Source: a bacterium
Lineage (GTDB): Bacteria; Patescibacteriota; Minisyncoccia; Phycocordibacterales; UBA9973
DNA: 64,000 nt
Reading direction: 5' to 3'
NCBI GenBank assembly: GCA_037127795.1
Contig: JBAXXQ010000001.1
Location: 405,198 to 469,197 of the forward strand
Shown here: positions 20,741 to 56,804 of the stretch, piece after piece
Numbering within the stretch: the first letter of the stretch is position 1
Layout: the number at the start of each line of letters is the position of its first letter
Notes under the pieces: generated by a model
The model's input: the letters and a program-made list of their open reading frames with translations, nothing else
Told to the model about the DNA's origin: nothing
Databases searched by the model: none
Program-made: the position numbers and the translations under genes

Positions 20741-21305
20741 TGAATATAGAGATCTTATCGTGGAGTGTAAGAGAAGCTTAGAATCTTCGGAGCGTCTTTT
20801 TAAAGATGTCTTTGTTTCCTCTGTTATTACGAGTAACGGGATTGTTGCCTTGAGTCAGGATAATTTAGAAAGAAATAAAAAGATGCGATATATGGCGGTT
20901 GCATTGATATGTATCGAATGGGAATCTTTGAGATCTCAAATACATCATTCTGATCAAAGTAAGCATCATAAATTTTGTATTAAAGTATATAAAGGGGATA
21001 ATGCATGGGGCACAACAAAGAGTTTGAGGGAGTTGGGTATTTTAAGAGATTGTATTATGCACCATGGTGGAGAAATATTTAGATATACAGAGTGGATGAA
21101 GCGTAAAAGAGGTGTAATTGTAGTAATAGACAAAAAATATGAAGATCCTAAAACAAAGAAACTATCTTTTACAGATGAGCATCTTTTTTATTTTTTTAAA
21201 TTAATTAAAGAAGATAGTTTGGATCATATCTTTACTAGAATAGAAAACCATATTGAGAAAAATAACCCACCAGTTTCAATCCTTAAAAGACTTAGATTAT
21301 TTTAA
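20721..21305 (+). CDS. Hypothetical 194-aa protein (element cargo), overlapping the upstream ORF
   Basis: ORF in operon arrangement with 19442..20740. No motif recognised. Confidence 0.4.
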   Translation: MKVMKIDEYRDLIVECKRSLESSERLFKDVFVSSVITSNGIVALSQDNLERNKKMRYMAVALICIEWESLRSQIHHSDQSKHHKFCIKVYKGDNAWGTTKSLRELGILRDCIMHHGGEIFRYTEWMKRKRGVIVVIDKKYEDPKTKKLSFTDEHLFYFFKLIKEDSLDHIFTRIENHIEKNNPPVSILKRLRLF

Positions 21306-21661
21306 TATTTAGTTCCGATAAAATAGGCTACTAATAAGGTTCCGTATATAGCTATATACGGGTATATGTTTTTAATAAAACTAGATCCAAAAATAAGAAA
21401 AAGAAAGGAGTATAAGAATAGTTCTATTATGATTTCTTTATTCCATTTACTGTGTTGTCCAACTGTAAATGCAATATAAAAATACAGTGCCAAACCAATT
21501 ATAAAACTAATCCAAATAATATTAGGAGAAAAAATATTTGATATGGTCTGAATTAAGATTGAGCTTAGGATTATAATCGAGCTCCACATTATCCATCTCA
21601 AATTAGTTATTTGAATTTCTTTTTGTTCTAATTGGTGATGTAAAAAATCTTCTTTGTCCAT
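21302..21661 (-). CDS. Small membrane protein (three predicted TM helices)
   Basis: Hydrophobic stretches IIILSSILIQTISNIF, ISFIIGLALYFYIAF and LFLYSFLFLIFGSSFI. Confidence 0.35.
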   Translation of the reverse strand: MDKEDFLHHQLEQKEIQITNLRWIMWSSIIILSSILIQTISNIFSPNIIWISFIIGLALYFYIAFTVGQHSKWNKEIIIELFLYSFLFLIFGSSFIKNIYPYIAIYGTLLVAYFIGTKY

Positions 21662-21667
21662 ACCTAT

Positions 21668-21904
21668 TTACTGTTGTTTTCGTATTACTTTATAGATCCA
21701 AATAGCCCCAGATATAATTCCAGCATAAAATACTGGCGGCATAATAAGTCCAATAAGAAGGCATGCACCAGCTGTATTCCTATATTCTTCACGAGTCATT
21801 TTTTTAAATTTCCACCAATCTTTTTTAGATATATCACCAAATCCAGTTTTTTCTAGTATAGGCGAAGGTGATATTTTAAATGATTTAATTTTGTCTTTTT
21901 CCAT
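21668..21904 (-). CDS. Small membrane protein
   Basis: C-terminal TM helix (ACLLIGLIMPPVFYAGIISGAIWIY). Start taken at MEKDKIK. The longer ORF-track start overlaps an AT-rich leader. Confidence 0.3.
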   Translation of the reverse strand: MEKDKIKSFKISPSPILEKTGFGDISKKDWWKFKKMTREEYRNTAGACLLIGLIMPPVFYAGIISGAIWIYKVIRKQQ

Positions 21905-22255
21905 AGGTTTTTTTTGCAAAAATGATAATTCCATAGAGTGGAACACAAAAAGCCCACCACATGGAGTGAGGGTTTTAAGGCCCTCCATACTCGTTTCCAA
22001 GTATGGCCTGCAAAGACAAATCCCCATCTGATGGGTTCTTTATGTCTTTGCAGGACGATTTTTTCACCATGCCGCTGATTGCTCAAGGGTTTAGGCTACT
22101 TATTACTATTTAGTTGTACATCTAGAATATCACATGTGCTAAAAGATATCCACAGGTATAGATGCTTGCCCAAAAATGGCAGTGCGTTATGATTGGATCA
22201 CACGATTATATCGCCCAATAAAAGTATGGTTTCTGATTGAAATATATTCGAACGT

Positions 22256-22335
22256 AAAGATAAAATTAGAAGATAAAACTAAAAGATAAAAATGCAGACA
22301 AAAATAGATAATATTACAAACCTAAATAAGATAAA
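22256..22335 (+). repeat. Iteron-like direct repeats (AAGATAAAA x5), part of the putative origin of replication of the element
   Basis: aaagataaaat / gaagataaaac / aaagataaaaa at a 13-bp pitch (22256, 22269, 22282), then atagataat (22303) and aagataaac (22327). Confidence 0.5.
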
Positions 22336-22349
22336 CATCTACATACAGA

Positions 22350-22431
22350 ATTCCTGAACGTTCTAAAGTAAGCCTACTGCTTACTTGGTGGGTCGTCTTT
22401 TGACGTTCAGGAACCTACTAAGTAAATAGTA
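22350..22431 (+). repeat. Nested inverted repeats immediately upstream of the Prim-Pol gene (putative ori/operator)
   Basis: Outer stem ttcctgaacgt/acgttcaggaa (11 bp). It encloses an inner hairpin aagtaagc-ctact-gcttactt. A third hairpin ctacta-agtaaa-tagtag follows. Confidence 0.5.
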
Positions 22432-22451
22432 GACTTTGTCTTCATTCAAAT

Positions 22452-24251
22452 ATGAATAAAACAAATCTTGATGAAGCTATTAAATTAAGCGAACTGAACT
22501 GGAGTATTATACCAATAGGAAACAATAAAAAACCTCTCGTAAAATGGAAAGAATTTCAAGAAAGACTAGCAACTAAAGAAGAAATAACATCTTGGTTTAA
22601 AAGATGGCCAAATGCAAATATTGCTGTTGTTACAGGTAAAATATCAAACGTTATTGTTTTTGATATAGACGCAAAACACGGTAGAGAAATAAGAGAATTC
22701 CAAATACCGCCTACAATTATCTCAAAAACTGGAGGTGGTGGTAATCATATATTCTTTAAATACCCCGATCGACATGTCCCGAATTCAAATGGTACTCTTT
22801 TTGGAGAAGGAATAGATATTAAAGGGGATGATGGGTATGCAATAGTACCTTATTCATCTCATAAATCTGGTAATTTTTATGAATGGGTTGAAATGTGTTC
22901 TCCGTTTGATATAGAACCAATAGATGTCCCAAACTGGCTGTACAATAAATTATTTGAAAATAATAATTCTGACAGTAAAACAAAATTATGGGAAAAAGAA
23001 ACATCTGATGTATTAGAAGGTACAAGAAACCAAACAGCAGCATCTGTAGCTGGTAAGATAATAAATACAATTCGAGAAGAAAATATACCTATCATTGGAT
23101 GGAACATGTTTAAGGATTGGAATAAAAATATTCCATCCCCTCTTCCCGAAAAGGAATTAAGAAGTACCTGGGAGAGTATCGGAAAATACCATACAACTAA
23201 TGGAGAGGAATCTAAGCCTCTTCTTGAAAAAATTAATATTACATCATGGAAACAATTCTCAAAAAAAGATTTTTCTGAAGTAAGCTGGCGTATACAGAAC
23301 CTTATACCTATGGAGGGTTTTGTTATATTATCTGCAATTTCAGGAGAAAAGAAGACATGGGTTTCTCTTGAGATGGCAAAATGTATTGCTGAAGGTATAA
23401 ACTTTTTAGGGACCGAGCTCTTTAAAACTGAACAAGGAAAAATACTCTATATTGATCAAGAAAACCCTGAACGAGACATTGTTCGAAGAGGTAAACAGCT
23501 TGGATTCAAAGAGAATGAAAATTTCTATATTTATAGACCAAACTCTTTAAACTTAAACGATGAAAAAATTGTTAAAGAATTATTAAGTAAAATTAAAGAA
23601 AACAATATTAATGTTGTCTTCATAGATACATTCCGAGCAGTTGCAGGAGGACTCAAAGAAGATAAGGCTGAAGATGTTCGCATGTTTTTTAACCGTTTTA
23701 AAATACTAAAAGATAGTGGTGTTGTAATCGTATGGCTCGATCATCGAAGAAAACCTGCCAACTTTGAAGGAAAAGTGCCTAAAAAAGAACAATTACTGGG
23801 TAGCCAAGACAAGACAGCTAGTGTTGAAATACTACTCCAACTATCAAGTGAATCTGGAAGTAACGAAATACGTGTATTTCAAGCAAAGAATCGCCTAGAT
23901 AGAGAGATAAATGCTTTTAAAATAGCTATGGTTGATAAAGATAACGAAGATGGGACAAGAACTACAGATTTAATTTATGATGGTGAGATTGATGAAGATG
24001 AGACAAAAAAGAATGAAGCAAAAGAGTATATATTGGAATTATTAGGATCGGGAGGTAAAACAACAAAAGAAATAAAAAATACTGTTTCAACACAGAGAAA
24101 AATTGGCGAGAAGAACATAAGACTTGCACTAGGTGAACTTGTTGATAGCGAGCAAATCGATTATTCTAAAAAAGGGCGCAGTCATTTCTATTTTATTAAA
24201 GAAACATCATCTTTAGAAGAATCAGAAATAATGAGTTTGGACGATCTCTAA
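22452..24251 (+). CDS. Replication initiation protein: N-terminal bifunctional primase-polymerase (Prim-Pol) domain fused to a RepA/AAA_25-like helicase-loader domain
   Basis: Prim-Pol motifs: WSIIPIGNNKKPLVKWKEF, the DxD motif IVFDIDAKHG, and GGGNHIFFKYP. The C-terminal half has a RecA-like ATPase pattern (ILSAISGEKKTWVSLEMAKCIAEG ... VVFIDTFRAV ... WLDHRRK), typical of plasmid/phage RepA or AAA_25. Confidence 0.7.
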   Translation: MNKTNLDEAIKLSELNWSIIPIGNNKKPLVKWKEFQERLATKEEITSWFKRWPNANIAVVTGKISNVIVFDIDAKHGREIREFQIPPTIISKTGGGGNHIFFKYPDRHVPNSNGTLFGEGIDIKGDDGYAIVPYSSHKSGNFYEWVEMCSPFDIEPIDVPNWLYNKLFENNNSDSKTKLWEKETSDVLEGTRNQTAASVAGKIINTIREENIPIIGWNMFKDWNKNIPSPLPEKELRSTWESIGKYHTTNGEESKPLLEKINITSWKQFSKKDFSEVSWRIQNLIPMEGFVILSAISGEKKTWVSLEMAKCIAEGINFLGTELFKTEQGKILYIDQENPERDIVRRGKQLGFKENENFYIYRPNSLNLNDEKIVKELLSKIKENNINVVFIDTFRAVAGGLKEDKAEDVRMFFNRFKILKDSGVVIVWLDHRRKPANFEGKVPKKEQLLGSQDKTASVEILLQLSSESGSNEIRVFQAKNRLDREINAFKIAMVDKDNEDGTRTTDLIYDGEIDEDETKKNEAKEYILELLGSGGKTTKEIKNTVSTQRKIGEKNIRLALGELVDSEQIDYSKKGRSHFYFIKETSSLEESEIMSLDDL

Positions 24252-44145: not shown

Positions 44146-45489
44146 CTAATCCTCCTCTTTATCAAATCTTTCATCGATTCTGACCATATCTCTAGGAAAA
44201 AGAGTTGCCTCACGTATGTTCGCTAGATTCAAAAACTGCATAGTTATACGTTCTGCACCAAATGCAAATCCTCCTTCAGGTGGTACACCATATTTGAACG
44301 CATCAAGAAACATTTTGATTTTTTTTGGATCCATTCCCCATATCTTTACGTGCTCCATTAATTGATTGTAGTTATTTATTCGGCGTCCACCTGAAAGTAA
44401 TTCTCTTCCACGACAAACAAGATCAACTCCTTCATTAAATTCAGGGTTTTCTTCACTAGGAAATACATAAAAAGGTTTCTTCATTGTAGGGTAGCCGTAC
44501 ACGAATACGAAGTCTGACCCTGTCTCTTTTTTGATTATCTCAGAAATTTCAACTTCATCTTGAGAGCTCAAATCCTTATCACCTCTATTATCTCTCCCGT
44601 ATACTTCAAATATTTTCTGATGCGCTTCTGTAAGAGATAGTGTTGGTGTGTATTCTATTATATTAGGAAGCTCTACATTAAGAATTTTCAAATGTTCACT
44701 GTTTCTTATCTTTATCTGCTCCAAAATATATCGGATAGTACCCTCTGCCATATCACGGACATCTTTCCAACTTTCGATAAATGCCATTTCTGCATCGAGA
44801 GATACTATCTCTGTAAGATGACGGGTAGTAGTACTTGGTTCTGCTCGAAATACTTTATTAACAGAGAAACAACGCTCAAAACCTGTCATAACAATTTGTT
44901 TGTATAATTGTGGAGATTGTGAAAGAAATGCCTTTTTATCAAAGTAGCTAATTTCAAAAACTTCTGCTCCTCCCTCTGCTGTCGCAGGAACAATACTTGG
45001 TGCCTGAAATTCAAAAAACATATTCTTTTTCATATACTCTCTAAAAGCATCTATTATTGTTTCTTGAATTTTAAAAATTGCTTGAATTTTTGGATGCCGA
45101 ATAACAAGCGCTCTATTATCGAGCTCTGTTGTAAGATCAAGATTATACCCACTAAGTGACATATCAAATGGTAGTGGCTCTGCTTCTGCAAGAACTTTTA
45201 TTTTTAAAATCTCAAGCTCGATATCTCCATTTAATACACCCTCTTTTTTATTTCTATCGGGTCGCTCATTTACTTTACCAACAACTTCAACAACCCACTC
45301 TTGGCGGATCTCTTTACCTACCTGCATTGCCTCACTATTGGGCAAAATAACCCCCTGAACAATACCGGTCATATCACGAAAATCAAAAAAGACCATTTTT
45401 CCTTGATCACGACGAACATCAATCCATCCTTTAATAGTAACCTCCAAACCTTTATGAGCCCCCAATTCGTTTATGTAGATTCTTTGCAT
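44146..45489 (-). CDS. Class IIb aminoacyl-tRNA synthetase: archaeal-type AspRS or AsnRS
   Basis: N-terminal OB-fold, motif 2 FRAEPSTTTRHLTEIVSLDAEMAF, QSPQLYKQ, and motif 3 GGFAFGAERITM. Confidence 0.75.
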   Translation of the reverse strand: MQRIYINELGAHKGLEVTIKGWIDVRRDQGKMVFFDFRDMTGIVQGVILPNSEAMQVGKEIRQEWVVEVVGKVNERPDRNKKEGVLNGDIELEILKIKVLAEAEPLPFDMSLSGYNLDLTTELDNRALVIRHPKIQAIFKIQETIIDAFREYMKKNMFFEFQAPSIVPATAEGGAEVFEISYFDKKAFLSQSPQLYKQIVMTGFERCFSVNKVFRAEPSTTTRHLTEIVSLDAEMAFIESWKDVRDMAEGTIRYILEQIKIRNSEHLKILNVELPNIIEYTPTLSLTEAHQKIFEVYGRDNRGDKDLSSQDEVEISEIIKKETGSDFVFVYGYPTMKKPFYVFPSEENPEFNEGVDLVCRGRELLSGGRRINNYNQLMEHVKIWGMDPKKIKMFLDAFKYGVPPEGGFAFGAERITMQFLNLANIREATLFPRDMVRIDERFDKEED

Positions 45490-45564
45490 ATGTGCATATT
45501 CTACAACAAAAATGAATAAAAAAAAAGCTCTACAGGAATATATCCTTATAGAGCTTTTTAATAA

Positions 45565-45846
45565 TTAACTAAAACAATCCATATGTATCTGTGTTGCCAC
45601 TTCTGCTATCTTACGACCGTATTCACCCATTTCAATAAGATAGAAATCAACAACATCTTGATTACTACCAAGGGTTTTAAAAAGTGGACGAAATCGTTCA
45701 TCTCTTTTAAGCTCTTGAACAAACCTAGAAAAATATTCAGAGTCACCAGGAGATTTTCGAGGTATCTTAATACCAGGTATATCGTTTGACTCAAAAACTT
45801 TGCTGTTTAATAAAGCGATAAGCGTATCTTTTTCTTTGTTAGTCAT
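45565..45846 (-). CDS. Hypothetical small protein
   Basis: ORF preceded by a strong promoter whose inferred start site lies downstream of the longer ORF-track start. Start taken at MTNKEK. Confidence 0.35.
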   Translation of the reverse strand: MTNKEKDTLIALLNSKVFESNDIPGIKIPRKSPGDSEYFSRFVQELKRDERFRPLFKTLGSNQDVVDFYLIEMGEYGRKIAEVATQIHMDCFS

Positions 45847-45864
45847 ACATTTTATTTTTTTATT

Positions 45865-45892
45865 ATTATAGCATAATTTATAAAAAATGCAA
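45865..45892 (-). promoter_or_regulatory. Sigma70-like promoter TTGCAT-16 nt-TATAAT
   Basis: Minus strand reads attGCATtttttataaattatgcTATAAT. The inferred TSS is about 12 nt before the ATG at 45846. Confidence 0.5.
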
Positions 45893-45936
45893 TAATTAAA
45901 GCCACGCATTATATCGTGACTTTATACTGTAAATAA

Positions 45937-46071
45937 TTATCTTGGTTTTGAGACCGTTGTTGTGGTCGTAATGACTGTCGTTGTAACCTCAACGGTAACA
46001 CCCTTACCTTCTCCACCTCCGCCTCCGCCCCAAAATACTGAACTTTGCGAAAAAGAAAATCTTTTTTTCAT
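45937..46071 (-). CDS. Candidate 44-aa Gly/Thr-rich small peptide (MKKRFSFSQSSVFWGGGGGGEGKGVTVEVTTTVITTTTTVSKPR)
   Basis: Not in the supplied ORF track. Hand-translated from ATG (46071) to TAA (45939-45937). Has its own TTGCAT-16-TATAAT promoter and follows the ABC exporter terminator. Confidence 0.35.
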   Translation of the reverse strand: MKKRFSFSQSSVFWGGGGGGEGKGVTVEVTTTVITTTTTVSKPR

Positions 46072-46090
46072 GTTAATTTATTTTGTATGC

Positions 46091-46118
46091 ATTATATCAT
46101 GATTTATAAAAAATGCAA
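46091..46118 (-). promoter_or_regulatory. Sigma70-like promoter TTGCAT-16 nt-TATAAT for the small peptide gene
   Basis: Minus strand reads attGCATtttttataaatcatgaTATAAT. A short leader precedes the ATG at 46071. Confidence 0.5.
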
Positions 46119-46122
46119 TAAT

Positions 46123-46156
46123 AAAACCCTTACCGAAATACATCGATAAGGGTTTT
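46123..46156 (-). terminator. Rho-independent terminator after the ABC exporter gene
   Basis: aaaaccctta-ccgaaatacatcga-taagggtttt (10-bp stem), with a T-run on the minus strand. Confidence 0.6.
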
Positions 46157-46173
46157 AAAGAACATGTAATACA

Positions 46174-47988
46174 TTATTTTCCAAAAGCATCAGCTTGTAA
46201 TTTATATAACTCGGCATATCTGCCGTTTTTATTATATAAATATTCATGATTTCCATGTTCAATAATTGCTCCATTTTCAAGAACTATTATTTTTGAGGCC
46301 TGCTTAACAGTTGAAAAATTATGAGAAATAAGTATAACAATCTTATCTGCTGTTTTTTCTTCCAAATTTTGGAATATGGACTGAGTAGTTAATGCATCAA
46401 CAGAAGATGTCGGTTCGTCTAATACACAAACTAAAGCATCTCTATAAAAAATACGAGAAATAGCAATACGTTGGTGTTCCCCAACGGAAAGATCTGTTCC
46501 ATCACGAAACCCTTTCCAAATTAGCTGCTTGGTACCATTTTTTAATTTATCAACAAATGATTTTGCTCCAGCCATTTCGAGAGACCAATCCACTCTTTCA
46601 GTATTAATACTATATTCTCCTTTTCCTAATGCTACAGATTCTTCAGCAGAAACATTATATCTTCCATATGTCTGAAACATTACAGCCAAATATTTATGCC
46701 ATGTTTTGACATCAATATCTTTTAGATTTACTCCATCAACCAATATCATACCTTCAGTTGGGTCATAGACCCGGCAAAGTAATTTTATCAATGTTGTTTT
46801 TCCTGCACCACTAAGACCTACAATTGCCAACTTTTCAGCTGATCTAATAGTAAGATTTATATTCTGCAAAACTTTTACAGAAGAACCATCATAACTAAAA
46901 GAAACATTAACAAATTCTATGGTTGGAGGTTTTTTATACTCAGGGAAAATAGCATCTACATTTGAAACTATTATTGGTTTTGTTTCAAAAACATCAAACC
47001 AAATAGTTGCATATTGGTTCGCATCTTGCAAAACAACAAGACTCCCAAAAAAATTACTCATTGAACCATAAAAATTATTATATGCTGAAAAACAAAAAAC
47101 CATAGAACCAATAGGTAGTAATCCAGCAAGACCTTTTTGTAAAATAATAATACCTGCAAGTAAACTGAAAATAACAGTATATATTCTCAATAATGTTTGC
47201 GATAAATTCTTTCTACTCTGAAGACTTATTATTTTTACATCCTCTGCGTCCATATGATCAGCGACCTCATGAACAAATTTCGAAGAAGAATTAAACATAT
47301 TTAACTCAATAAGATAATATTGAGACATAAATAAGCCCATTCTATTTTGAATAATTCTCTTTGAGTCAGTATTCAACCTTCTAATTCTAAAAAGTTTCCT
47401 ACTATATTTTCGCTCAACATAATACAAAGGAGCTGCAGACAAAAGTGCTAAAATAGCCAAATGAAAATCAATAGATATAAGTATACATAACGTAACACTT
47501 ATAGCAATAAGTGCAGAAATTATATTACAATTTTGATTTATCATTGAGAATATAGCACCCTTTCCCCACTCATTCCCTTGTTGAATTTTTGATTGATACT
47601 CACTAGATTCAAGTGTCGCAGCATCTAAACTAGATTGTTTTTGAGAAAATATTTTTTGAATACCTGTCATAAACCTTTCAGAAAATACAATTTCAAAATA
47701 TTTTTCCCATACACCCAGCACTGCTGGAATAAAAAAGGAAGCAAGTAATAGTAATATGTATGGTAATAATAAATGTACTATAGATAAAATACTAAGATCT
47801 TGAAACCCTTGTACTTTTATAATATATACAACCTTATTAACCAACAAACTAAACGAACCAATAGAGATAAGAGGTGTTAGACCTGTCAGAATAGACAAGA
47901 TAACAAATCCCCAAAAAGGCTTAGGTGCAATTTTCGCACCTAACACAAAAGATTTAACTGATATATGCATCAGACTTTTTTTCTTCAT
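46174..47988 (-). CDS. ABC transporter permease/ATP-binding fusion protein (exporter type)
   Basis: N-terminal 6-TM domain. C-terminal NBD with Walker A GLSGAGKTT, signature LSVGEHQRIAISR, and Walker B LVCVLDEPTS. Confidence 0.8.
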   Translation of the reverse strand: MKKKSLMHISVKSFVLGAKIAPKPFWGFVILSILTGLTPLISIGSFSLLVNKVVYIIKVQGFQDLSILSIVHLLLPYILLLLASFFIPAVLGVWEKYFEIVFSERFMTGIQKIFSQKQSSLDAATLESSEYQSKIQQGNEWGKGAIFSMINQNCNIISALIAISVTLCILISIDFHLAILALLSAAPLYYVERKYSRKLFRIRRLNTDSKRIIQNRMGLFMSQYYLIELNMFNSSSKFVHEVADHMDAEDVKIISLQSRKNLSQTLLRIYTVIFSLLAGIIILQKGLAGLLPIGSMVFCFSAYNNFYGSMSNFFGSLVVLQDANQYATIWFDVFETKPIIVSNVDAIFPEYKKPPTIEFVNVSFSYDGSSVKVLQNINLTIRSAEKLAIVGLSGAGKTTLIKLLCRVYDPTEGMILVDGVNLKDIDVKTWHKYLAVMFQTYGRYNVSAEESVALGKGEYSINTERVDWSLEMAGAKSFVDKLKNGTKQLIWKGFRDGTDLSVGEHQRIAISRIFYRDALVCVLDEPTSSVDALTTQSIFQNLEEKTADKIVILISHNFSTVKQASKIIVLENGAIIEHGNHEYLYNKNGRYAELYKLQADAFGK

Positions 47989-52952: not shown

Positions 52953-53336
52953 TTATTTTATAGAATTGATTACTACTTTGAGGTGTGGTTGTTTGTGACC
53001 ATTCTTTTTGAAGTAACGACTCTTTTGGAGGTATTTGATAACAATCAATTTTGGATTGCGGCCTACAACAGCAACAGTTCCTTTTACTTGCATACCAGAG
53101 ATGTGTGGTGTACCGATAAGAGTATCTTTTCCATCATCAAAAAGAAGTACATCCGGGAAAACAATTTCGTCACCTTTTTTGTATTCTCCTCCTTCTGGAG
53201 TAAGAACTTTTTCGATAGTGATAGTGTCACCTACAGCAACTTTGTATTGCTTGCCGCCGGCTTTAATAACAGCAAAATCTGCTTGTTCTGCTACCTCCTT
53301 TTTTGATACTTTTGTTGTTGTTTTTGCTGTTGCCAT
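52953..53336 (-). CDS. rplU: 50S ribosomal protein L21
   Basis: AVIKAGGKQYKVAVGDTITIEK and the KVLLF... pattern of bL21, with an N-terminal basic extension. Confidence 0.8.
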   Translation of the reverse strand: MATAKTTTKVSKKEVAEQADFAVIKAGGKQYKVAVGDTITIEKVLTPEGGEYKKGDEIVFPDVLLFDDGKDTLIGTPHISGMQVKGTVAVVGRNPKLIVIKYLQKSRYFKKNGHKQPHLKVVINSIK

Positions 53337-53375
53337 AAATTCTTATATAAATTTGGGTAAATTAAATGTCAGAGT

Positions 53376-53403
53376 AGTATACTCTTTTTTTTAAAAAATG
53401 CAA
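53376..53403 (-). promoter_or_regulatory. Sigma70-like promoter TTGCAT-16 nt-TATACT for rplU
   Basis: Minus strand reads attGCATtttttaaaaaaaagagTATACT, about 35 nt upstream of the rplU ATG. Confidence 0.45.
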
Positions 53404-53430
53404 TATCTATCCAATAGGTTCAATAAAATA

Positions 53431-53454
53431 GCCCTGTTTTAAATAAAACAGGGC
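53431..53454. terminator. Perfect 10-bp hairpin (gccctgtttt-aaat-aaaacagggc). Possibly a terminator for the minus-strand helicase transcript.
   Basis: Lies between the helicase stop and the rplU promoter. Flanked by A/T tracts. Confidence 0.4.
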
Positions 53455-53523
53455 CCCAGAGATCAGAATAGGATACGCGACGTTAGAGTAGTACAACAAA
53501 CGGCACATAACAACACATCATAT

Positions 53524-53697
53524 ATAAAGAACTATTTTTTTAAAAAATGGCACGAGATATTTCGCTCGTGCCCCATAGTCTACAGCACGCCAGAAAACTA
53601 AACAATACTGTACTGAACAGAATTACAATCTACCAACTTCCAAATTTCTTTAGAAGCTGGATAAATTGGCGAAGGATAAAAATCCTTCGCCCCTTAG
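53524..53697 (+). repeat. Composite repeat unit 1: hairpin A (53548-53571, ggcacgag-atatttcg-ctcgtgcc) plus hairpin B (53669-53692, ggcgaagga-taaaaa-tccttcgcc), with conserved flanks
   Basis: Shares the 28-nt core tggcacgagatatttcgctcgtgcccca and the ...atctaccaa..ttccaaa...ctggataaattggcgaagg.aaaaat.ccttcgcccc module with the unit at 55745..55932. Confidence 0.6.
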
Positions 53698-53762
53698 TGA
53701 GGACTAATGAGCAAAACAGAAGATTACTGGACCACTGGACACCATAGCATACAACTATTATA

Positions 53763-55565
53763 TTATTTCTTAAATAATTTTATACCCTCTTGTACAGCTT
53801 GGTCAAAAGTTATTTCACTTTTGTATGCAGACTGCAACCATTTTGGAAGACCACCAAAAGTAAATCTTCTAAACTGCTGAGACATAAGGAATATACACCC
53901 CTTATCATTTACAGAACGTATAGTTCTTCCACGTGCTTGCAGCATTTTTGTTATAACACGCCAAGTCCATAACGCCCACCTCATATTTCCAAAACGCTTT
54001 TCTTCAAATTGCGCTTGTGGATCAGCAGGCCCAGGATATCCAGGACGTAAATAAAATGTAAAACCTGCAGCGCCATCAGGCAAATCGATACCCTCACCAT
54101 ATTGAGCTTCTGTACCGATAAGCACATCGCCATGTCCTTCACGAAATTTTCGTACGGCCTCGCGAGCAGAAAAATTTTCATTATAGCTTGTAACTACAAC
54201 TCCTTCTTCTGCGGCAAACTTAATACATTGATTACGCTCTTCATCAGATACCACAATAATCAAAGACCTGATTCCGTTTTGCTTCCCAATACTAACACCT
54301 CGCAACATTTTACGAATAGTACGATTTTTATCATTTCGACTCATTCCCTTTATTGATAAATCAGGAACGTCTTTAGGCATAAAAATCTTTGTATGAGAAA
54401 GTGGAAAATCAGACTCTAGGTCAACGAAATCTCCATCAATCCCCGTGTCTCGTGACAAGATACTAGGATCTCTACCAATAGTTGCAGACATAGCCATATA
54501 CTTTTCTGGTAATAGTTTGGTTCTAGTAAGTCCTGCAATTGCATAACTTTTAATAGTGAGGATATATTGAGATTTACGATCATCAACTTTTTCACTATTC
54601 CAAAAACCAAACACATACGAAAGAGGTTTTTTTTCTTTACCCTCAAGAGCAAACTCTAAACTTTTTACATACCTGTATAATGCACCAGTAAATTCATCTA
54701 ATGCTTTTAAAAGCTCTCTATCAGAAACAGGATTTACCCTCTTTTCTTTAATAGCTTTTTTGATTTTTTCATCAATGCGCTCTCTTTTAATTTTTAATAA
54801 AATCTTTAAAAGTTCGCGCAAATCATCATCTTGCAATAGTTGTGTACGAGATCCAGATTCATAATTACGTAATATGCGAATCATAGTATCAGAGAAATCT
54901 CTAATATGTTTCGCTTCAGTTCGACATTCAATACTACAAAGTAATTCCCAAAATTGCTCAAGGGAGGTATCTGTAATATTGTAGTGCAGCATACTACGTA
55001 TAGAATTTGCCCATTTATGAACCTCATCTATAACAATAGCTTCAGGCATTTCTTTTCTTCCAAGCGCTTCGTAAAAATAATAATGTGTAGTACACGCTAC
55101 TATTTCACTTTTACGAGAAAGATACTTTGCTTGAAAATACGGACACGGTTTTACACCTTGCTCGTATGTTTCGCCTGTTTCCAAATTGACACGGTGTGGG
55201 CATTCTTTTAAAAGACCACAAGGTACCTGATCTGCTTTGTATGAATCTACATAATATAGACAATCATACTCATTTCTCCCATACACTGCCGATACTTGTG
55301 GATACAACGTAACCACATTATCTACCAATGTTTTATTTGGGCAAACAAAAAATCCATTTTTACCAGCTGCATTTGTTTTCAAAAATGCATACCCGAGACT
55401 TGTTTTACCAGTCCCTGTTGGTGCTTGTACTAACATTTTATTACTGTCTGGCATTTTTTGTAATACCAAAAGTTGATTTGGGCGAGGTTCATCATGAGCC
55501 TGCTTAAAATTTGCCAAGAAAAGATCTAACGTCTTTTTCTCAGACTGATGTTTCTGATGTTGCAT
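53763..55565 (-). CDS. DinG/XPD (Rad3)-family ATP-dependent DNA helicase with an Fe-S cluster domain
   Basis: Walker A QAPTGTGKTSLGY. Four-Cys cluster YDCLYYVD..PCGLLKECP..PCPYF between motifs I and II. DEAH box IVIDEVHKW. C-terminal helicase motifs (GTEAQYGEGID, RGRTIRS). Confidence 0.7.
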   Translation of the reverse strand: MQHQKHQSEKKTLDLFLANFKQAHDEPRPNQLLVLQKMPDSNKMLVQAPTGTGKTSLGYAFLKTNAAGKNGFFVCPNKTLVDNVVTLYPQVSAVYGRNEYDCLYYVDSYKADQVPCGLLKECPHRVNLETGETYEQGVKPCPYFQAKYLSRKSEIVACTTHYYFYEALGRKEMPEAIVIDEVHKWANSIRSMLHYNITDTSLEQFWELLCSIECRTEAKHIRDFSDTMIRILRNYESGSRTQLLQDDDLRELLKILLKIKRERIDEKIKKAIKEKRVNPVSDRELLKALDEFTGALYRYVKSLEFALEGKEKKPLSYVFGFWNSEKVDDRKSQYILTIKSYAIAGLTRTKLLPEKYMAMSATIGRDPSILSRDTGIDGDFVDLESDFPLSHTKIFMPKDVPDLSIKGMSRNDKNRTIRKMLRGVSIGKQNGIRSLIIVVSDEERNQCIKFAAEEGVVVTSYNENFSAREAVRKFREGHGDVLIGTEAQYGEGIDLPDGAAGFTFYLRPGYPGPADPQAQFEEKRFGNMRWALWTWRVITKMLQARGRTIRSVNDKGCIFLMSQQFRRFTFGGLPKWLQSAYKSEITFDQAVQEGIKLFKK

Positions 55566-55639
55566 GTTTTACATTTTTAATTGTGAAAAGAACTAAAATC
55601 TAAAGGTATACAATAAAAGTATTCTATACCTTATAAATT

Positions 55640-55662
55640 GGCGAAGAAAAAAAATCTTCGCC
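55640..55662 (+). repeat. Partial extra copy of the hairpin-B module (ggcgaaga-aaaaaaa-tcttcgcc), with the conserved ataaattggcgaag left flank
   Basis: Third occurrence of the B palindrome, 100 nt upstream of the helicase start. Confidence 0.5.
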
Positions 55663-55744
55663 CCAAGGGTAACTGGACATGGCTATGAGATGCGTCAGAT
55701 GACAGTAGCTGAGCATGCGCTAGGTTGCCAATTTTTAAATATAT

Positions 55745-55932
55745 AATAAAAGAACTTATTTTAAATTTTGGCACGAGATATTTCGCTCGTGCCCCAGAGA
55801 TGAGCTTAACCAAGAGAACAAAACCGTGCTGGGGAACGCTGGGCTCTACAACATAGTTTAATCTACCAATCTTCCAAACATAATTTGAAAAACTGGATAA
55901 ATTGGCGAAGGAAAAAATTCCTTCGCCCCACA
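55745..55932 (+). repeat. Composite repeat unit 2: hairpin A (55770-55793) plus hairpin B (55904-55927)
   Basis: Same modules and the same orientation as 53524..53697. Hairpin A is identical. Confidence 0.6.
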
Positions 55933-55988
55933 GATAGGTAAAGAATAACTAACAATTCAATACCTCACAAGACTTAACCGGATAAATT

Positions 55989-56015
55989 ACAGGAGAGTTT
56001 TTAAGGCTCTCCTGT
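55989..56015. terminator. Hairpin (acaggagag-tttttaagg-ctctcctgt) downstream of the 56036..56656 gene
   Basis: 9-bp perfect stem immediately after the stop codon of the minus-strand gene. Confidence 0.4.
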
Positions 56016-56035
56016 GTTTAATCTTTAATGTACAG

Positions 56036-56656
56036 CTATTCTTCAAAAATTTCCCACTTGGCAACTTTGAACATACCAAATGGTCCCTTTTTTGCTGGGC
56101 GATAATCTCCAAGACCAACCTTGGTTCCGGCAGCATCAAACAATTGTTTAACAATATCAGCCTGGCAGCCAAATTCTGCGGTGGTATTAATCTCTATCTC
56201 AAGATCAATTTCCCACGATTTAAACAAAGGTCTTACAATTCCTACCGCAACAGCTTTACCGCCATTTTTTAGTACACCCCTTCTTTTATCAACCACATAA
56301 TCTTCAGTACCTTCTTTAAAAGGAAGAAATGTAGCACCTAAAAAATCAAGGAATCCAAAAATACTAGTGGATTCAGCAGTAGAAATCTGCTTTTTACCAA
56401 TTTTTACACTGCGTCCTGCTTCTGCAAGACAGGCTGTTAGGTATTCAATCTTGATACCCGGTTTACCTTCTTCACTTTTAAGTACCTTACGAGCTGCAAT
56501 TTCTGAAAGAGGAATATCTTTCTGTGTTGCAGATTTTGCACTTACTCCAATAAGCTGATCAAGTAACTCATCAGTCATTGGGTTTTGTAACATTCCGTTA
56601 CCTTTTGCAGCAAGAGTTATTTTAACTCGTACGCTGTCCTTAGATTTTGTAGCCAT
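56036..56656 (-). CDS. Hypothetical 206-aa soluble protein
   Basis: Clean ORF with its own promoter region and terminator hairpin. No motif recognised. Confidence 0.4.
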   Translation of the reverse strand: MATKSKDSVRVKITLAAKGNGMLQNPMTDELLDQLIGVSAKSATQKDIPLSEIAARKVLKSEEGKPGIKIEYLTACLAEAGRSVKIGKKQISTAESTSIFGFLDFLGATFLPFKEGTEDYVVDKRRGVLKNGGKAVAVGIVRPLFKSWEIDLEIEINTTAEFGCQADIVKQLFDAAGTKVGLGDYRPAKKGPFGMFKVAKWEIFEE

Positions 56657-56804
56657 AGCTATTTAATTTTTAGTGAAACAATATATTTCTTTAATAGTAT
56701 ATACATATATAGATATTTTGTCAAGAACTATGCAAGTCCTTTTTTATATTTTCTAATTTTAGCTTATTTTATATGGTTTTTATATACTATGCTATACTAA
56801 TATC

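What the first reader, a model, noticed from the sequence alone, without database searches (positions are those of the whole stretch)
53524..55932. DinG/XPD-like Fe-S helicase gene bracketed by repeated palindromic hairpin modules (two hairpin families, 2-3 copies each)
Two unusually long non-coding regions (~430 and ~470 nt) flank the helicase gene. Each contains the same composite module in the same orientation. Hairpin A is an 8-bp stem, ggcacgag-atatttcg-ctcgtgcc, identical at 53548 and 55770 with an identical 28-nt core. Hairpin B is a 9-bp stem, ggcgaagga-taaaaa-tccttcgcc, at 53669, 55904 and a variant at 55640. Conserved spacer segments (aatctaccaa..ttccaaa..ctggataaattggcgaagg) link them. 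This is not CRISPR-like: the spacing is irregular and the elements are palindromic. The pattern could reflect terminal repeats of a small cassette that mobilised the helicase. It could be a family of structured small RNAs or REP/MITE-like elements. Or it could be operator sites for a palindrome-binding regulator. The adjacent 206-aa ORF (56036..56656) is also uncharacterised.
Basis: seen in the sequence. Interest (0 to 1): 0.55.

Follow-up and report, generated by a model that had tools for sequence, protein, structure and literature searches.

The report
VIPR guide-RNA arrays flanking a helicase
The repeated hairpins are the conserved 3' tails of six small guide-RNA genes of a VIPR system, a CRISPR-related RNA-guided DNA-binding system first described in 2026. 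The "uncharacterised" 206-aa ORF is its RNA-binding Vipr protein, and the helicase is its accessory gene.

Summary
They occur nowhere else in the 64 kb.

They are not REP elements, cassette ends or operators. On the minus strand, which all three flanking genes share, six of the seven hairpins are preceded in register by 10-13 pentanucleotide repeats of the form YNNNG. A position-weight scan finds exactly these six tracts in 128 kb of sequence (both strands).

The adjacent 206-aa ORF is a Cas7-like RAMP protein. It is homologous to the Vipr protein of phage SUSP1 and keeps the thumb arginine and the G-loop D-aromatic-R.

The same order (vipr, tract array, Fe-S DinG/XPD-like helicase, tract array) recurs in 20 of 27 Patescibacteria loci found with the Vipr protein. 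It also recurs in 4 of 4 loci found with the helicase that had enough flank.

The same scan on phage SUSP1 recovers the four published vrRNAs.

The locus is therefore a chromosomal, helicase-associated VIPR system (bioRxiv 10.64898/2026.04.26.720920) in a Patescibacteria (candidate phyla radiation, CPR) genome.

No targets were found. Matches in viral contigs were at the level of shuffled controls.

It is a new member of a very recently described kind.

The parts
56696..56724 (-). promoter-like site upstream of vipr (TTGACA-17-TATACT, 11 of 12 matches)
   Evidence: Consensus scan. This is a consensus match only; function is inferred.
56036..56656 (-). vipr: 206-aa RAMP (Cas7-like) protein, NCBI MEI6022711.1, annotated 'hypothetical'
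   Evidence: The family profile hits PDB 36pp_D 'SUSP1 Vipr protein' at E 6.5e-9. hhalign against the SUSP1 Vipr ORF gives 97.2% probability and E 3.8e-11. It matches phrog_4652 at E 1.5e-11. The AF2 model has pLDDT 87.8, and its top Foldseek PDB hits are Csm and Cmr complex subunits and type VII Cas7, at E about 1e-6.
55989..56015 (-). hairpin D after the vipr stop codon, followed on the RNA strand by AAUUUAUCC (a B-type flank)
   Evidence: In the relative L003 both vipr paralogs are likewise followed by a hairpin plus UUCUUUAUAAGG.
55928..55982 (-). vrRNA 1 repeat tract, 11 YNNNG pentamers
   Evidence: PSSM scan; register shown.
55860..55927 (-). vrRNA 1 tail, B type: hairpin 1 (55904-55927) plus hairpin 2 closed by AAUUUA/UAGAUU
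   Evidence: RNAfold -34.4 kcal/mol, z -7.8. The + strand gives only -18.1.
55794..55853 (-). vrRNA 2 repeat tract, 12 pentamers
55770..55793 (-). vrRNA 2 tail, A type: 8-bp stem, 8-nt loop CGAAAUAU, then AAAAUUUAAAA
   Evidence: The loop consensus yGAAAyAy is shared with A-type tails in L003 and L008.
55738..55765 (-). promoter-like site after the A tail (TTTAAA-16-TATATT). It lies in the conserved motif TTTAAAA..AAGTTCTTTAT..TATAT.
   Evidence: The motif recurs after A-type tails in L003, L008 and L010. Function is inferred.
55663..55722 (-). vrRNA 3 repeat tract, 12 pentamers
55597..55662 (-). vrRNA 3 tail, B' type: hairpin 1 (55640-55662) plus hairpin 2 (AAGGUAUA...UAUACCUU) closed by AAUUUA/UAGAUU. 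The helicase 5' UTR follows directly.
   Evidence: RNAfold -26.7 kcal/mol, z -6.7.
53763..55565 (-). vap candidate: 600-aa DinG/XPD-like helicase with four conserved Cys (an Fe-S-type motif)
   Evidence: Pfam Helicase_C_2, DEAD_2 and ResIII. PADLOC typeIV_DinG at E 2.6e-45 over the full length. phrog_2488. Cys conservation. It is syntenic with vipr in 20 Vipr-anchored and 4 helicase-anchored loci.
53692..53756 (-). vrRNA 4 repeat tract, about 12-13 pentamers, starting 6 nt after the helicase stop codon
53627..53691 (-). vrRNA 4 tail, B type: hairpin 1 (53668-53691) plus hairpin 2 closed by AAUUUA/UAGAUU. Its last base is the first base of the next tract.
   Evidence: RNAfold -36.3 kcal/mol, z -8.2, against -23.0 on the + strand. 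By my count 69 of the 70 bases shown from hairpin 1 to UAGAUU are identical to the orthologous tail in L005, while the tract differs.
53573..53627 (-). vrRNA 5 repeat tract, 11 pentamers (the best-scoring tract, 24.1)
53549..53572 (-). vrRNA 5 tail, A type, followed by AUUUUUU (terminator-like)
53517..53544 (-). promoter-like site after the A tail (TTTAAA-16-TATGAT)
   Evidence: Function is inferred.
53456..53520 (-). vrRNA 6 repeat tract, 10-13 pentamers. The first few overlap the promoter-like -10 hexamer.
53430..53455 (-). vrRNA 6 tail, hairpin C, terminator-like (followed by AUUUUAUU). The rplU (L21) leader follows.
   Evidence: L21 identified.

Best explanation
Window 53430-56724, minus strand, is a chromosomal VIPR (Viral Interference Programmable Repeat) locus of a Patescibacteria (CPR) bacterium.

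Contents.
- vipr, a small Cas7-like RAMP protein.
- Six vrRNA genes.
- A DinG/XPD-like Fe-S helicase as the accessory (vap) gene, sitting inside the vrRNA array.

Each vrRNA has 10-13 pentanucleotide repeats (Y-N-N-N-G/C) followed by a structured 3' tail.

Two tail types alternate.
- The B type has two stacked hairpins and runs straight into the next repeat tract.
- The A type has one hairpin with a yGAAAyAy loop. It is followed by a U-rich stretch and a promoter-like motif.
- The array therefore looks like a series of two-guide transcription units. One of these units carries the helicase mRNA in the second position.

Mechanism, by homology with the SUSP1 system; not shown here.
- One Vipr protomer binds each repeat.
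- The conserved G/C-Y bases are flipped out.
- The variable bases are presented for gapped pairing with double-stranded DNA, giving sequence-specific binding and silencing.
- The helicase probably acts on the bound target, as CasDinG does in type IV-A CRISPR. This last step is inference.
For: Vipr protein.
- The profile of 29 homologs hits only PDB 36pp 'SUSP1 Vipr protein' below E 0.001 (E 6.5e-9).
- hhalign against the SUSP1 Vipr ORF gives 97.2% probability and E 3.8e-11 over 138 columns.
- The RNA-contact residues named in 10.64898/2026.04.26.720927 align as follows: thumb R138 with R142 (invariant); G-loop D177-W178-R179 with D184-Y/F185-R186.
- The AF2 model (pLDDT 87.8) matches Csm and Cmr complex subunits and type VII Cas7. 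It also matches about 200-aa phage RAMP-like proteins.

Repeats.
- Position 1 is Y in 58 of 60 repeats (0 of 100,000 shuffles) and position 5 is G or C in 55 of 60.
- The PSSM scan finds exactly six tracts on both strands of the 64 kb, all on the minus strand inside the two intergenic regions.
- The paper lists YNNNG as one of the alternative repeat forms.

Positive control. The same scan on 50 kb of phage SUSP1 finds four tracts, one upstream of vipr and three downstream of vap. This matches the published small-RNA sequencing.

Tails.
- 81 of 96 tract ends have a hairpin, against 10% of random positions.
- 8 of 10 stem pairs show compensatory changes.
- Minus-strand folds are 6-16 kcal/mol more stable than plus-strand folds.

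Synteny.
- vipr, tracts, helicase and tracts lie in that order, mostly on one strand (divergent in L023 and L029), in 20 of 27 Patescibacteria loci. Six of the other seven contigs end too early to tell.
- All 4 helicase-anchored loci with enough flank have Vipr homologs and tracts.

Turnover. Compared with a genome whose helicase is 83% identical, the bases from hairpin 1 to UAGAUU are 69 of 70 identical by my count, but the N positions of the tract are unrelated.
Against: - No expression data exist. Transcript ends, processing and promoters are inferred.
- No target was found. There was no self-match in the window above shuffled controls under six pairing rules. Exact 9-10-repeat gapped cores gave 0-6 viral-contig hits against 0 and 3 for shuffled controls. 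There was no hit in the metagenome contigs.
- Sequence similarity to the one characterised Vipr is confined to about 140 columns at 22% identity.
- The repeat consensus is weaker than GGY/NN. The position equivalent to G1 is not conserved, so the SUSP1 pairing rule may not transfer.
- I could not assign the VIPR type, or confirm that the helicase is one of the named vap genes, because the paper's figures and data tables were not readable.
Confidence: 0.88

Rival explanations
1. The units are ordinary trans-acting regulatory small-RNA paralogs, or stacked intrinsic terminators and attenuators for vipr, the helicase and rplU. On this view they have no functional link to the 206-aa protein.
For: Hairpins A (53549-53572) and C meet a terminator consensus on the minus strand. 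All flanking genes are on that strand. No Rfam family matches.
Against: Terminators do not explain a 5-nt register that is kept over 282 distinct tracts in 26 genomes while the intervening bases are near-random. They do not explain the strict co-occurrence with a RAMP protein. Most tails lack a proper U-run (one search lists only 2 of the 7 hairpins as minus-strand terminators).
Confidence: 0.05
2. The locus is a degenerate or divergent type IV-like CRISPR-Cas locus. On this view the hairpins are diverged repeats, the stretches between them are long spacers, the ORF is a Csf2/Cas7, and the helicase is CasDinG.
For: The helicase's best defence-HMM match is typeIV_DinG (E 2.6e-45, full length). 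The ORF has a Cas7-like fold.
Against: - There are no identical direct repeats, and the stems differ from unit to unit with compensatory changes.
- The 'spacers' are themselves pentanucleotide repeats.
- No Cas5, Cas6, Cas8 or Cas1 lies among the neighbours, and there is no CRISPR-DR hit.
- The protein's only significant solved relative by sequence is Vipr, not a Cas7.
Confidence: 0.04
3. The hairpins are REP/BIME or MITE-like selfish palindromes, or the terminal repeats of a cassette that moved the helicase.
For: Repeated palindromes flank one gene. The vipr-helicase block sits in different housekeeping contexts in different genomes. One assembly breaks near the repeats.
Against: - There are no copies elsewhere in 64 kb.
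- Hairpin A is absent from the JGI metagenome contigs.
- All copies have one orientation.
- Copy number ranges from about 1 to more than 40 per locus, always next to vipr.
- No transposase or RAYT gene is adjacent here.
Confidence: 0.02
4. The palindromes are operator sites for a DNA-binding regulator of the helicase.
For: They are palindromic and lie near promoter-like sites.
Against: The stem sequences are not conserved; only the pairing is. The G-U pairs work only at the RNA level and only on one strand. The units sit both downstream and upstream of genes.
Confidence: 0.01

Closest known systems
VIPR system of Escherichia phage SUSP1 (type II VIPR; bioRxiv 10.64898/2026.04.26.720920 and 10.64898/2026.04.26.720927)
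   Same: - A small RAMP protein with homologous thumb and G-loop residues.
- A minimal vipr-plus-accessory locus.
- vrRNA genes of about 100 nt in the flanking intergenic regions, on the gene strand. Each has 9-16 pentanucleotide repeats plus a conserved structured 3' tail.
- An A/T-rich TTTTAAAA..TCTTT motif between units, seen by eye in both systems.
   Different: - The repeat is Y-N-N-N-G/C rather than Y-N-N-G-G.
- The tails are plain hairpins of two alternating types rather than a pseudoknot.
- The accessory gene is a 600-aa Fe-S helicase rather than a small predicted DNA-binding protein.
- The locus is in a bacterial chromosome among housekeeping genes, not in a phage.
- Protein identity is only about 22%.
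VIPR types III-V (accessory genes predicted to be nucleases or helicases; same preprint)
   Same: An enzymatic accessory gene and a cellular location. The preprint records alternative repeat forms, including YNNNG, and 'staggered' arrays in which one vrRNA ends where the next starts. The B-tail-to-tract junctions here look like that.
   Different: I could not read the type definitions. It is therefore unknown whether this Patescibacteria clade, its alternating tail types, or the placement of the helicase inside the array are already described.
Type IV-A CRISPR-Cas with CasDinG (Csf4)
   Same: A Cas7-like RNA-binding backbone protein plus a DinG-family helicase and no nuclease. The helicase matches the PADLOC typeIV_DinG profile end to end. 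The likely outcome is interference without cleavage; this is my own knowledge of type IV-A, not tested here.
   Different: - There is no CRISPR array and there are no Csf1, Csf3 or Cas6 genes.
- The guides are repeat-coded rather than contiguous spacers.
- The helicase keeps four conserved Cys.
- No solved CasDinG chain is among its PDB sequence hits at E < 0.001; those hits are FANCJ and XPD.
Cas7 backbone subunits of class 1 CRISPR effectors (Csm3, Cmr4, type VII Cas7)
   Same: The best structural matches of the Vipr model have TM about 0.5-0.56 and E about 1e-6. [quoted passage not shown]
   Different: Sequence identity is 9-15%. There is no CRISPR context. The periodicity on the RNA is 5 nt rather than 6 nt.

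Membership tests
VIPR system | A Vipr protein: a small (about 20 kDa) RAMP homolog with an RRM core, a glycine-rich loop and a thumb, related to characterised Vipr proteins | tested here: met
   HMM hit to PDB 36pp_D at E 6.5e-9. hhalign against SUSP1 Vipr at 97.2% probability. Thumb R and G-loop D-aromatic-R are conserved. The fold is Cas7-like.
VIPR system | vrRNA genes in the flanking intergenic DNA with 9-16 tandem pentanucleotide repeats (YNNGG or the related forms NNNGG, YNNNG, NNNNG) | tested here: met
   Six tracts of 10-13 YNNNG repeats. Position 1 is Y in 58 of 60 repeats, with 0 of 100,000 shuffles reaching this. These are the only six tracts in 128 kb scanned. The same scan recovers the 4 SUSP1 vrRNAs.
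VIPR system | A conserved structured 3' tail after the variable repeat tract | tested here: met
   81 of 96 tract ends have hairpins against 10% of random positions. Compensatory changes occur in 8 of 10 pairs. Fold z-scores range from -3.9 to -8.2. The orthologous tail is 69 of 70 identical by my count, with an unrelated tract.
VIPR system | A minimal locus: vipr plus one accessory (vap) gene, with no CRISPR array and no other cas genes | tested here: met
   The neighbours are CorA, CysRS, a histidine kinase, L21, RecR and DnaB. There is no CRISPR-DR hit. The helicase is syntenic with vipr in 24 loci.
VIPR system | vrRNAs are expressed as transcripts of about 100 nt and co-purify with Vipr | not testable with these tools
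   No transcriptome data were available. Strand and ends are inferred from gene strand, G-U pairs and consensus scans.
VIPR system | The variable bases specify a DNA target by gapped pairing (the 1-nt skip rule) | tested here: inconclusive
   There is no self-target above shuffled controls. Viral-contig hits are at control level. There is no metagenome hit. There is no codon-like signal in the p2p3p4 triplets.
VIPR type with a helicase accessory gene (one of types III-V) | Placement in the Vipr phylogeny and the named vap gene, as defined in Fig. 5 and data S4 of the preprint | not testable with these tools
   The text says only that types III-V encode nucleases or helicases. The figures and data tables are not held.
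Type IV-A CRISPR-Cas | A CRISPR array of near-identical direct repeats with unique spacers of about 32 nt | tested here: not met
   The repeat search finds only the A and B hairpin families, with irregular spacing. The inter-hairpin DNA is pentanucleotide repeats.
Type IV-A CRISPR-Cas | Csf1 (large subunit), Csf3 (Cas5) and Cas6/Csf5 genes next to Csf2 and DinG | tested here: not met
   Only vipr and the helicase lie in the block.
REP/BIME or MITE elements | Many dispersed copies at unrelated intergenic sites | tested here: not met
   None lies outside the two regions in 64 kb, and there is no exact copy in the metagenome contigs. The rest of the 580-kb genome was not available.
XPD/DinG Fe-S helicases | SF2 helicase motifs plus four cluster-binding Cys between motifs I and II | tested here: met
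   Pfam DEAD_2 and Helicase_C_2. C102, C122 and C141 are invariant and C116 is at least 90% conserved in 32 homologs. Cluster binding itself is not shown.

The most novel reading that the evidence does not exclude
The Patescibacteria helicase-type VIPR may be a distinct functional variant rather than a copy of the phage system.
- Its guides use a relaxed Y-NNN-G/C code with three unconstrained bases per repeat, which may imply a different pairing rule.
- They appear to be made as two-guide transcripts with alternating tail types.
- The helicase mRNA is embedded in the array in place of a guide.
- The block sits in core chromosomal sites. In two relatives it lies just downstream of rplB; in one of them rpsS follows, so it is inside the S10 ribosomal operon.

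This would fit a domesticated RNA-guided system that recruits an Fe-S DinG helicase. It could be a functional counterpart, or even a relative, of type IV-A CRISPR, and it might regulate host or episymbiont-partner DNA rather than only phages.
Probability: 0.2. Interest if true: 0.75.

Novelty: new member of a known kind. Interest (0 to 1): 0.55.

Why it matters
VIPR is a newly reported class of RNA-guided DNA recognition and has been proposed as ancestral to CRISPR. Only phage type II systems have been studied mechanistically.

This locus and its roughly 25 relatives show four things.
- A helicase-associated form is widespread in the tiny genomes of Patescibacteria.
- These loci carry from a few to more than 40 guides per genome.
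- The repeat code is relaxed.
- The guides turn over quickly while the tails stay fixed.

The locus is a compact, well-delimited candidate (about 3.3 kb) for testing two questions: what a DinG-like helicase adds to a Vipr filament, and whether the one-base-skip rule holds for YNNNG guides.

It also shows that genome annotation currently labels the key protein 'hypothetical' and misses the RNA genes entirely.

Tried and rejected
- Rfam at gathering and at permissive thresholds found nothing in the region. tRNA and tmRNA searches found nothing there.
- Pfam, NCBIfam and PADLOC gave nothing for the 206-aa ORF. tblastn of it against 50,697 phage genomes found no match.
- A small-ORF reading of the units was rejected. 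The 66-aa ORF that starts in hairpin A has no ATG in the second copy, and a 5-nt period is incompatible with coding.
- Target searches:
  - Six pairing rules against the masked window gave nothing above shuffled-order controls.
  - Five viral-contig scans with real guide cores gave 2, 0, 0, 6 and 3 hits, against 3 and 0 for two shuffled controls.
  - The v3 hits fall in a large ORF (baseplate-like by eye; not scanned) in low-GC viral contigs. The v5 hit falls in an 86-aa ORF with the skipped base at the wobble position. Neither is above chance, and no other guide converges on those contigs.
  - One metagenome scan with a 22-base core found nothing.
- I tested whether the third variable base pairs contiguously, using stop-codon depletion in p2p3p4 triplets over 282 tracts. 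There was no signal.
- The AFDB fold library was unavailable, so I could not check whether the preprint's seed proteins are the nearest structural neighbours.
- The preprint's supplement, as held, has no type tables.
Full report
**Observation**

The two non-coding regions are 53337-53762 (426 nt) and 55566-56035 (470 nt).
- A at 53549-53572 and 55770-55793, with an identical 28-nt core;
- B at 53668-53691 and 55904-55927;
- B' at 55640-55662.

A scan of the whole window for perfect hairpins adds C (53430-53455) and D (55989-56015). It also shows that hairpins of the form GGC...GCC followed by CC occur only in these two regions. Other hairpins in the window are ordinary A-tract/stem/T-tract terminators.

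The three flanking genes are all on the minus strand:
- a 206-aa ORF with no Pfam hit;
- the 600-aa helicase (Helicase_C_2, DEAD_2, ResIII);
- rplU, encoding ribosomal protein L21.

Rfam finds nothing in the region at either threshold.

**Relatives**

The helicase protein has about 100 homologs, all from Patescibacteria-type metagenome bins. Many sit on contigs of only 2-4 kb. One deposited assembly carries this very gene on a 2,626-bp contig that ends in the hairpin regions.

In a 179-kb contig whose helicase is 70% identical (L003), the helicase lies between rplB and rpsS inside the S10 ribosomal operon. There it is preceded by two paralogs of the 206-aa ORF (51% and 44% identity). It is flanked by about 1.8 kb and 1.0 kb of non-coding DNA holding about 20 hairpins of the same kind at roughly 115-nt spacing.

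The stems differ from unit to unit but always pair. Two kinds of 3' flank alternate. This ruled out cassette ends and pointed to an array of RNA genes tied to the two proteins.

**The 206-aa protein**

- A profile of 29 homologs has one significant hit among all PDB chains: 36pp_D, 'SUSP1 Vipr protein', at E 6.5e-9.
- The protein also matches phrog_4652, of unknown function, at E 1.5e-11.
- An AlphaFold model from the alignment (pLDDT 87.8) has Csm and Cmr complex subunits and type VII Cas7 as its best solved matches, at E about 1e-6. In the viral library it matches three phage proteins of about 200-250 aa; two are unnamed or uncharacterised and one is annotated as a RAMP protein.
- The name led to two 2026 preprints describing VIPR systems. 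A VIPR system has a small ancestral RAMP protein (Vipr), an accessory gene (vap), and vrRNAs of about 100 nt encoded in the flanking intergenic DNA. Each vrRNA has 9-16 YNNGG repeats and a conserved structured 3' tail. One Vipr protomer binds each repeat, flips out GGY, and presents NN for pairing with DNA. One target base is skipped per repeat.
- The residues the structural preprint names as RNA contacts align with conserved residues here. Thumb R138 aligns with R142. G-loop D177-W178-R179 aligns with D184-Y/F185-R186.
- I located the SUSP1 gene in the phage record (28474-29061, minus strand of KT454805). A profile-profile comparison gives 97.2% probability and E 3.8e-11 over 138 columns.

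**The repeats**

I aligned the 50-70 nt that precede each hairpin on the minus strand, anchored at the hairpin. Every unit in the window and in L003 shows a 5-nt register.

In the six window units:
- position 1 is a pyrimidine in 58 of 60 repeats (T in 47);
- position 5 is G in 34 and C in 21;
- positions 2-4 carry almost no information;
- no shuffle out of 100,000 reaches the pyrimidine count.

A two-position weight matrix summed over nine repeats, at threshold 14, finds exactly six tracts on both strands of the 64 kb. They are 55928-55982, 55794-55853, 55663-55722, 53692-53756, 53573-53632 and 53456-53520. All are on the minus strand and each ends at one of the hairpins.

The preprint's methods state that some VIPR types use NNNGG, YNNNG or NNNNG repeats instead of YNNGG. 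This locus fits YNNNG.

As a positive control, the same scan on 50 kb of phage SUSP1 returns four tracts and nothing else. One lies upstream of vipr and three lie downstream of vap. That is the arrangement the preprint found by small-RNA sequencing. The SUSP1 sequence shows GGYNN runs followed by a structured tail.

- In ten loci, 81 of 96 tract ends have a stem of at least 6 bp starting within a few bases. Only 10% of 3,000 random positions do.
- Fourteen B-type first hairpins from five genomes align without gaps. Eight of ten pairs show compensatory changes, with 46 double changes, and 0 of 500 shuffles reach this.
- One caveat applies. I chose those 14 because they were perfect hairpins, so the 100% pairing is by construction. 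The informative result is the diversity of stems at a fixed position.
- All three B-type tails in the window fold into the same shape. Hairpin 1 abuts a long hairpin 2 closed by AAUUUA/UAGAUU. Energies are -26.7 to -36.3 kcal/mol, with z from -6.7 to -8.2.
It needs G-U pairs, so the plus-strand transcripts fold 6-16 kcal/mol worse. This supports the minus strand as the RNA strand.
- A-type tails have a 7-8-bp stem and an 8-nt loop with consensus yGAAAyAy. They are followed by AAyUUUUAAAA and the motif AAGTTCTTTAT..TATAT.
- In both window copies a consensus scan calls that stretch promoter-like: TTTAAA-16-TATATT at 55765..55738 and TTTAAA-16-TATGAT at 53544..53517. It also finds a strong site upstream of vipr at 56724..56696.

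**Inferred layout on the minus strand**

1. Promoter.
2. vipr.
3. Hairpin D.
4. Guide 1 with a B tail.
5. Guide 2 with an A tail.
6. Promoter.
7. Guide 3 with a B' tail.
8. Helicase.
9. Guide 4 with a B tail.
10. Guide 5 with an A tail.
11. Promoter.
12. Guide 6 with tail C.
13. rplU.

B tails run straight into the next tract. In one case tail and tract share a base. This resembles the 'staggered' arrays mentioned in the preprint.

Promoters, terminators and processing sites are inferences from sequence only.

**Conservation of the system**

A scan of one genome per species with the Vipr alignment returned 41 loci.

- Of the 27 labelled as Patescibacteria lineages, 20 have the helicase (37-69% identity) downstream of vipr, with tracts between and after.
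- It is on the same strand in 18 of them. In L023 and L029 the helicase and most tracts are divergent from vipr.
- In six of the other seven, the contig ends within about 2.6 kb of vipr.
- The number of tracts per locus ranges from about 1 to more than 40.
- More distant Vipr homologs, in Proteobacteria, Myxococcota and others, lack the helicase within 8 kb.
- In the reverse direction, three loci fetched through distant helicase homologs (36-46% identity) all have Vipr homologs just upstream (E 1e-17 to 2e-69) and tracts on both sides. L003 does too.
- The genes next to these loci are housekeeping genes. They include L2 again in L008, aminoacyl-tRNA synthetases, PolA, TsaE, a Mur ligase and Dus. 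The block is therefore chromosomal and sits at different sites in different lineages.
- In a genome whose helicase is 83% identical, the bases from hairpin 1 to UAGAUU downstream of the helicase are 69 of 70 identical by my count. The repeat tract keeps its frame but shares no N positions. This matches what the preprint describes: hypervariable guide positions next to a conserved tail.

**The helicase**

- It has four Cys between motifs I and II. Three are invariant and one is at least 90% conserved in 32 homologs. This is the pattern of XPD/DinG Fe-S helicases, from my own knowledge of that family.
- Its best match in a defence-system library is the type IV-A CRISPR DinG profile (E 2.6e-45, end to end).
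- Its solved relatives by sequence are FANCJ and XPD.
- The preprint says that VIPR types III-V have nuclease or helicase accessory genes. I could not read the type tables, so I do not assign a type.

**Targets**

None was found.
- Six pairing rules applied to the masked window gave nothing above shuffled-order controls. This agrees with the preprint's report of no self-targeting.
- Gapped cores of 18-20 specified bases from five guides gave 2, 0, 0, 6 and 3 viral-contig hits. Two shuffled controls gave 3 and 0.
- Extending the hits showed no excess matching, and no other guide converged on those contigs.
- A 22-base core found nothing in the metagenome contigs.
- Hairpin A itself is absent from the metagenome contigs.
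- I tested for codon-like behaviour of the three variable bases over 282 tracts and found none.

**Verdict**

The finding is real and is explained. It is a VIPR locus, in a form with a helicase accessory gene, YNNNG guides and two alternating tail types, in a Patescibacteria chromosome.

- Shown here: protein homology, the repeats, tail structure with covariation, synteny, and guide turnover.
- Inferred: expression, processing, DNA binding and the role of the helicase.

Because the class, the helicase-type accessory genes and the YNNNG repeats are already reported, I rate it a new member of a known kind. The alternating tails and the position of the helicase inside the array may or may not be new.

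Noticed in passing
window 21968-22097 (-): A full-length match to the Rfam LOOT RNA (RF03000; 76 bits against a gathering score of 46.4). It lies in an intergenic region of about 1.1 kb (21305-22452).
   Followed up: no
L003 2602-8803; L008 7042-13193: In two relatives the whole vipr-array-helicase-array block starts directly downstream of rplB (L2). In L003 rpsS (S19) follows the block, so it is inserted inside the otherwise conserved S10 ribosomal-protein operon. In L008 the downstream ORF has no Pfam hit. In the window the block sits just upstream of rplU (L21).
   Followed up: partly
L029 1530-9849; L023 4498-9060: In these loci the helicase and most tracts are on the strand opposite to vipr (a divergent layout). 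L029 carries more than 40 tracts, by far the largest array seen.
   Followed up: no
window 53763-55565 (-): The helicase's strongest defence-library match is the type IV-A CRISPR 'typeIV_DinG' profile (153 bits, full length). This is much stronger than its matches to canonical DinG, YoaA or Rad3 models (at most 69 bits). It may point to a link between VIPR helicases and CasDinG, or it may only reflect how that profile was built.
   Followed up: partly
L002 (= window 53310-55935); helicase homologs: One deposited assembly has this helicase on a 2,626-bp contig that ends in the arrays. About a third of the helicase homologs are on contigs of 2-2.6 kb. The repeated tails probably break short-read assemblies, so these loci will often be fragmented.
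   Followed up: partly
protein P0024: A 904-aa homolog carries sigma-70 regions 1.2-4 fused to the helicase domains. It may be a gene-call fusion of neighbouring genes or a real fusion.
   Followed up: no
L061 27614-27974 (-) compared with window 53517-53548 and 55738-55769 (-): Between successive vrRNAs, phage SUSP1 has TTTTTAAAAGGTCTTT..., and the Patescibacteria arrays have TTTAAAA..AAGTTCTTTAT. This A/T-rich inter-unit motif looks similar in very distant VIPR systems. It was seen by eye only.
   Followed up: no
window 45489-46174; 53377-53404: The motif TTGCAT-N17-TATAAT/TATACT (on the + strand seen as ...AAAAAATGCAAT) recurs upstream of minus-strand genes, including rplU. The 45.5-46.2 kb region also holds two short unannotated ORFs. 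This is probably the local promoter consensus.
   Followed up: no
L047 643-668; L048 490-515: The nine-repeat gapped core of guide 5 matches a conserved 86-87-aa ORF in two IMG/VR contigs. 18 of 22 guide bases match, and the skipped base falls on the codon wobble position. The number of such hits equals that of shuffled controls, so I treat it as chance.
   Followed up: yes
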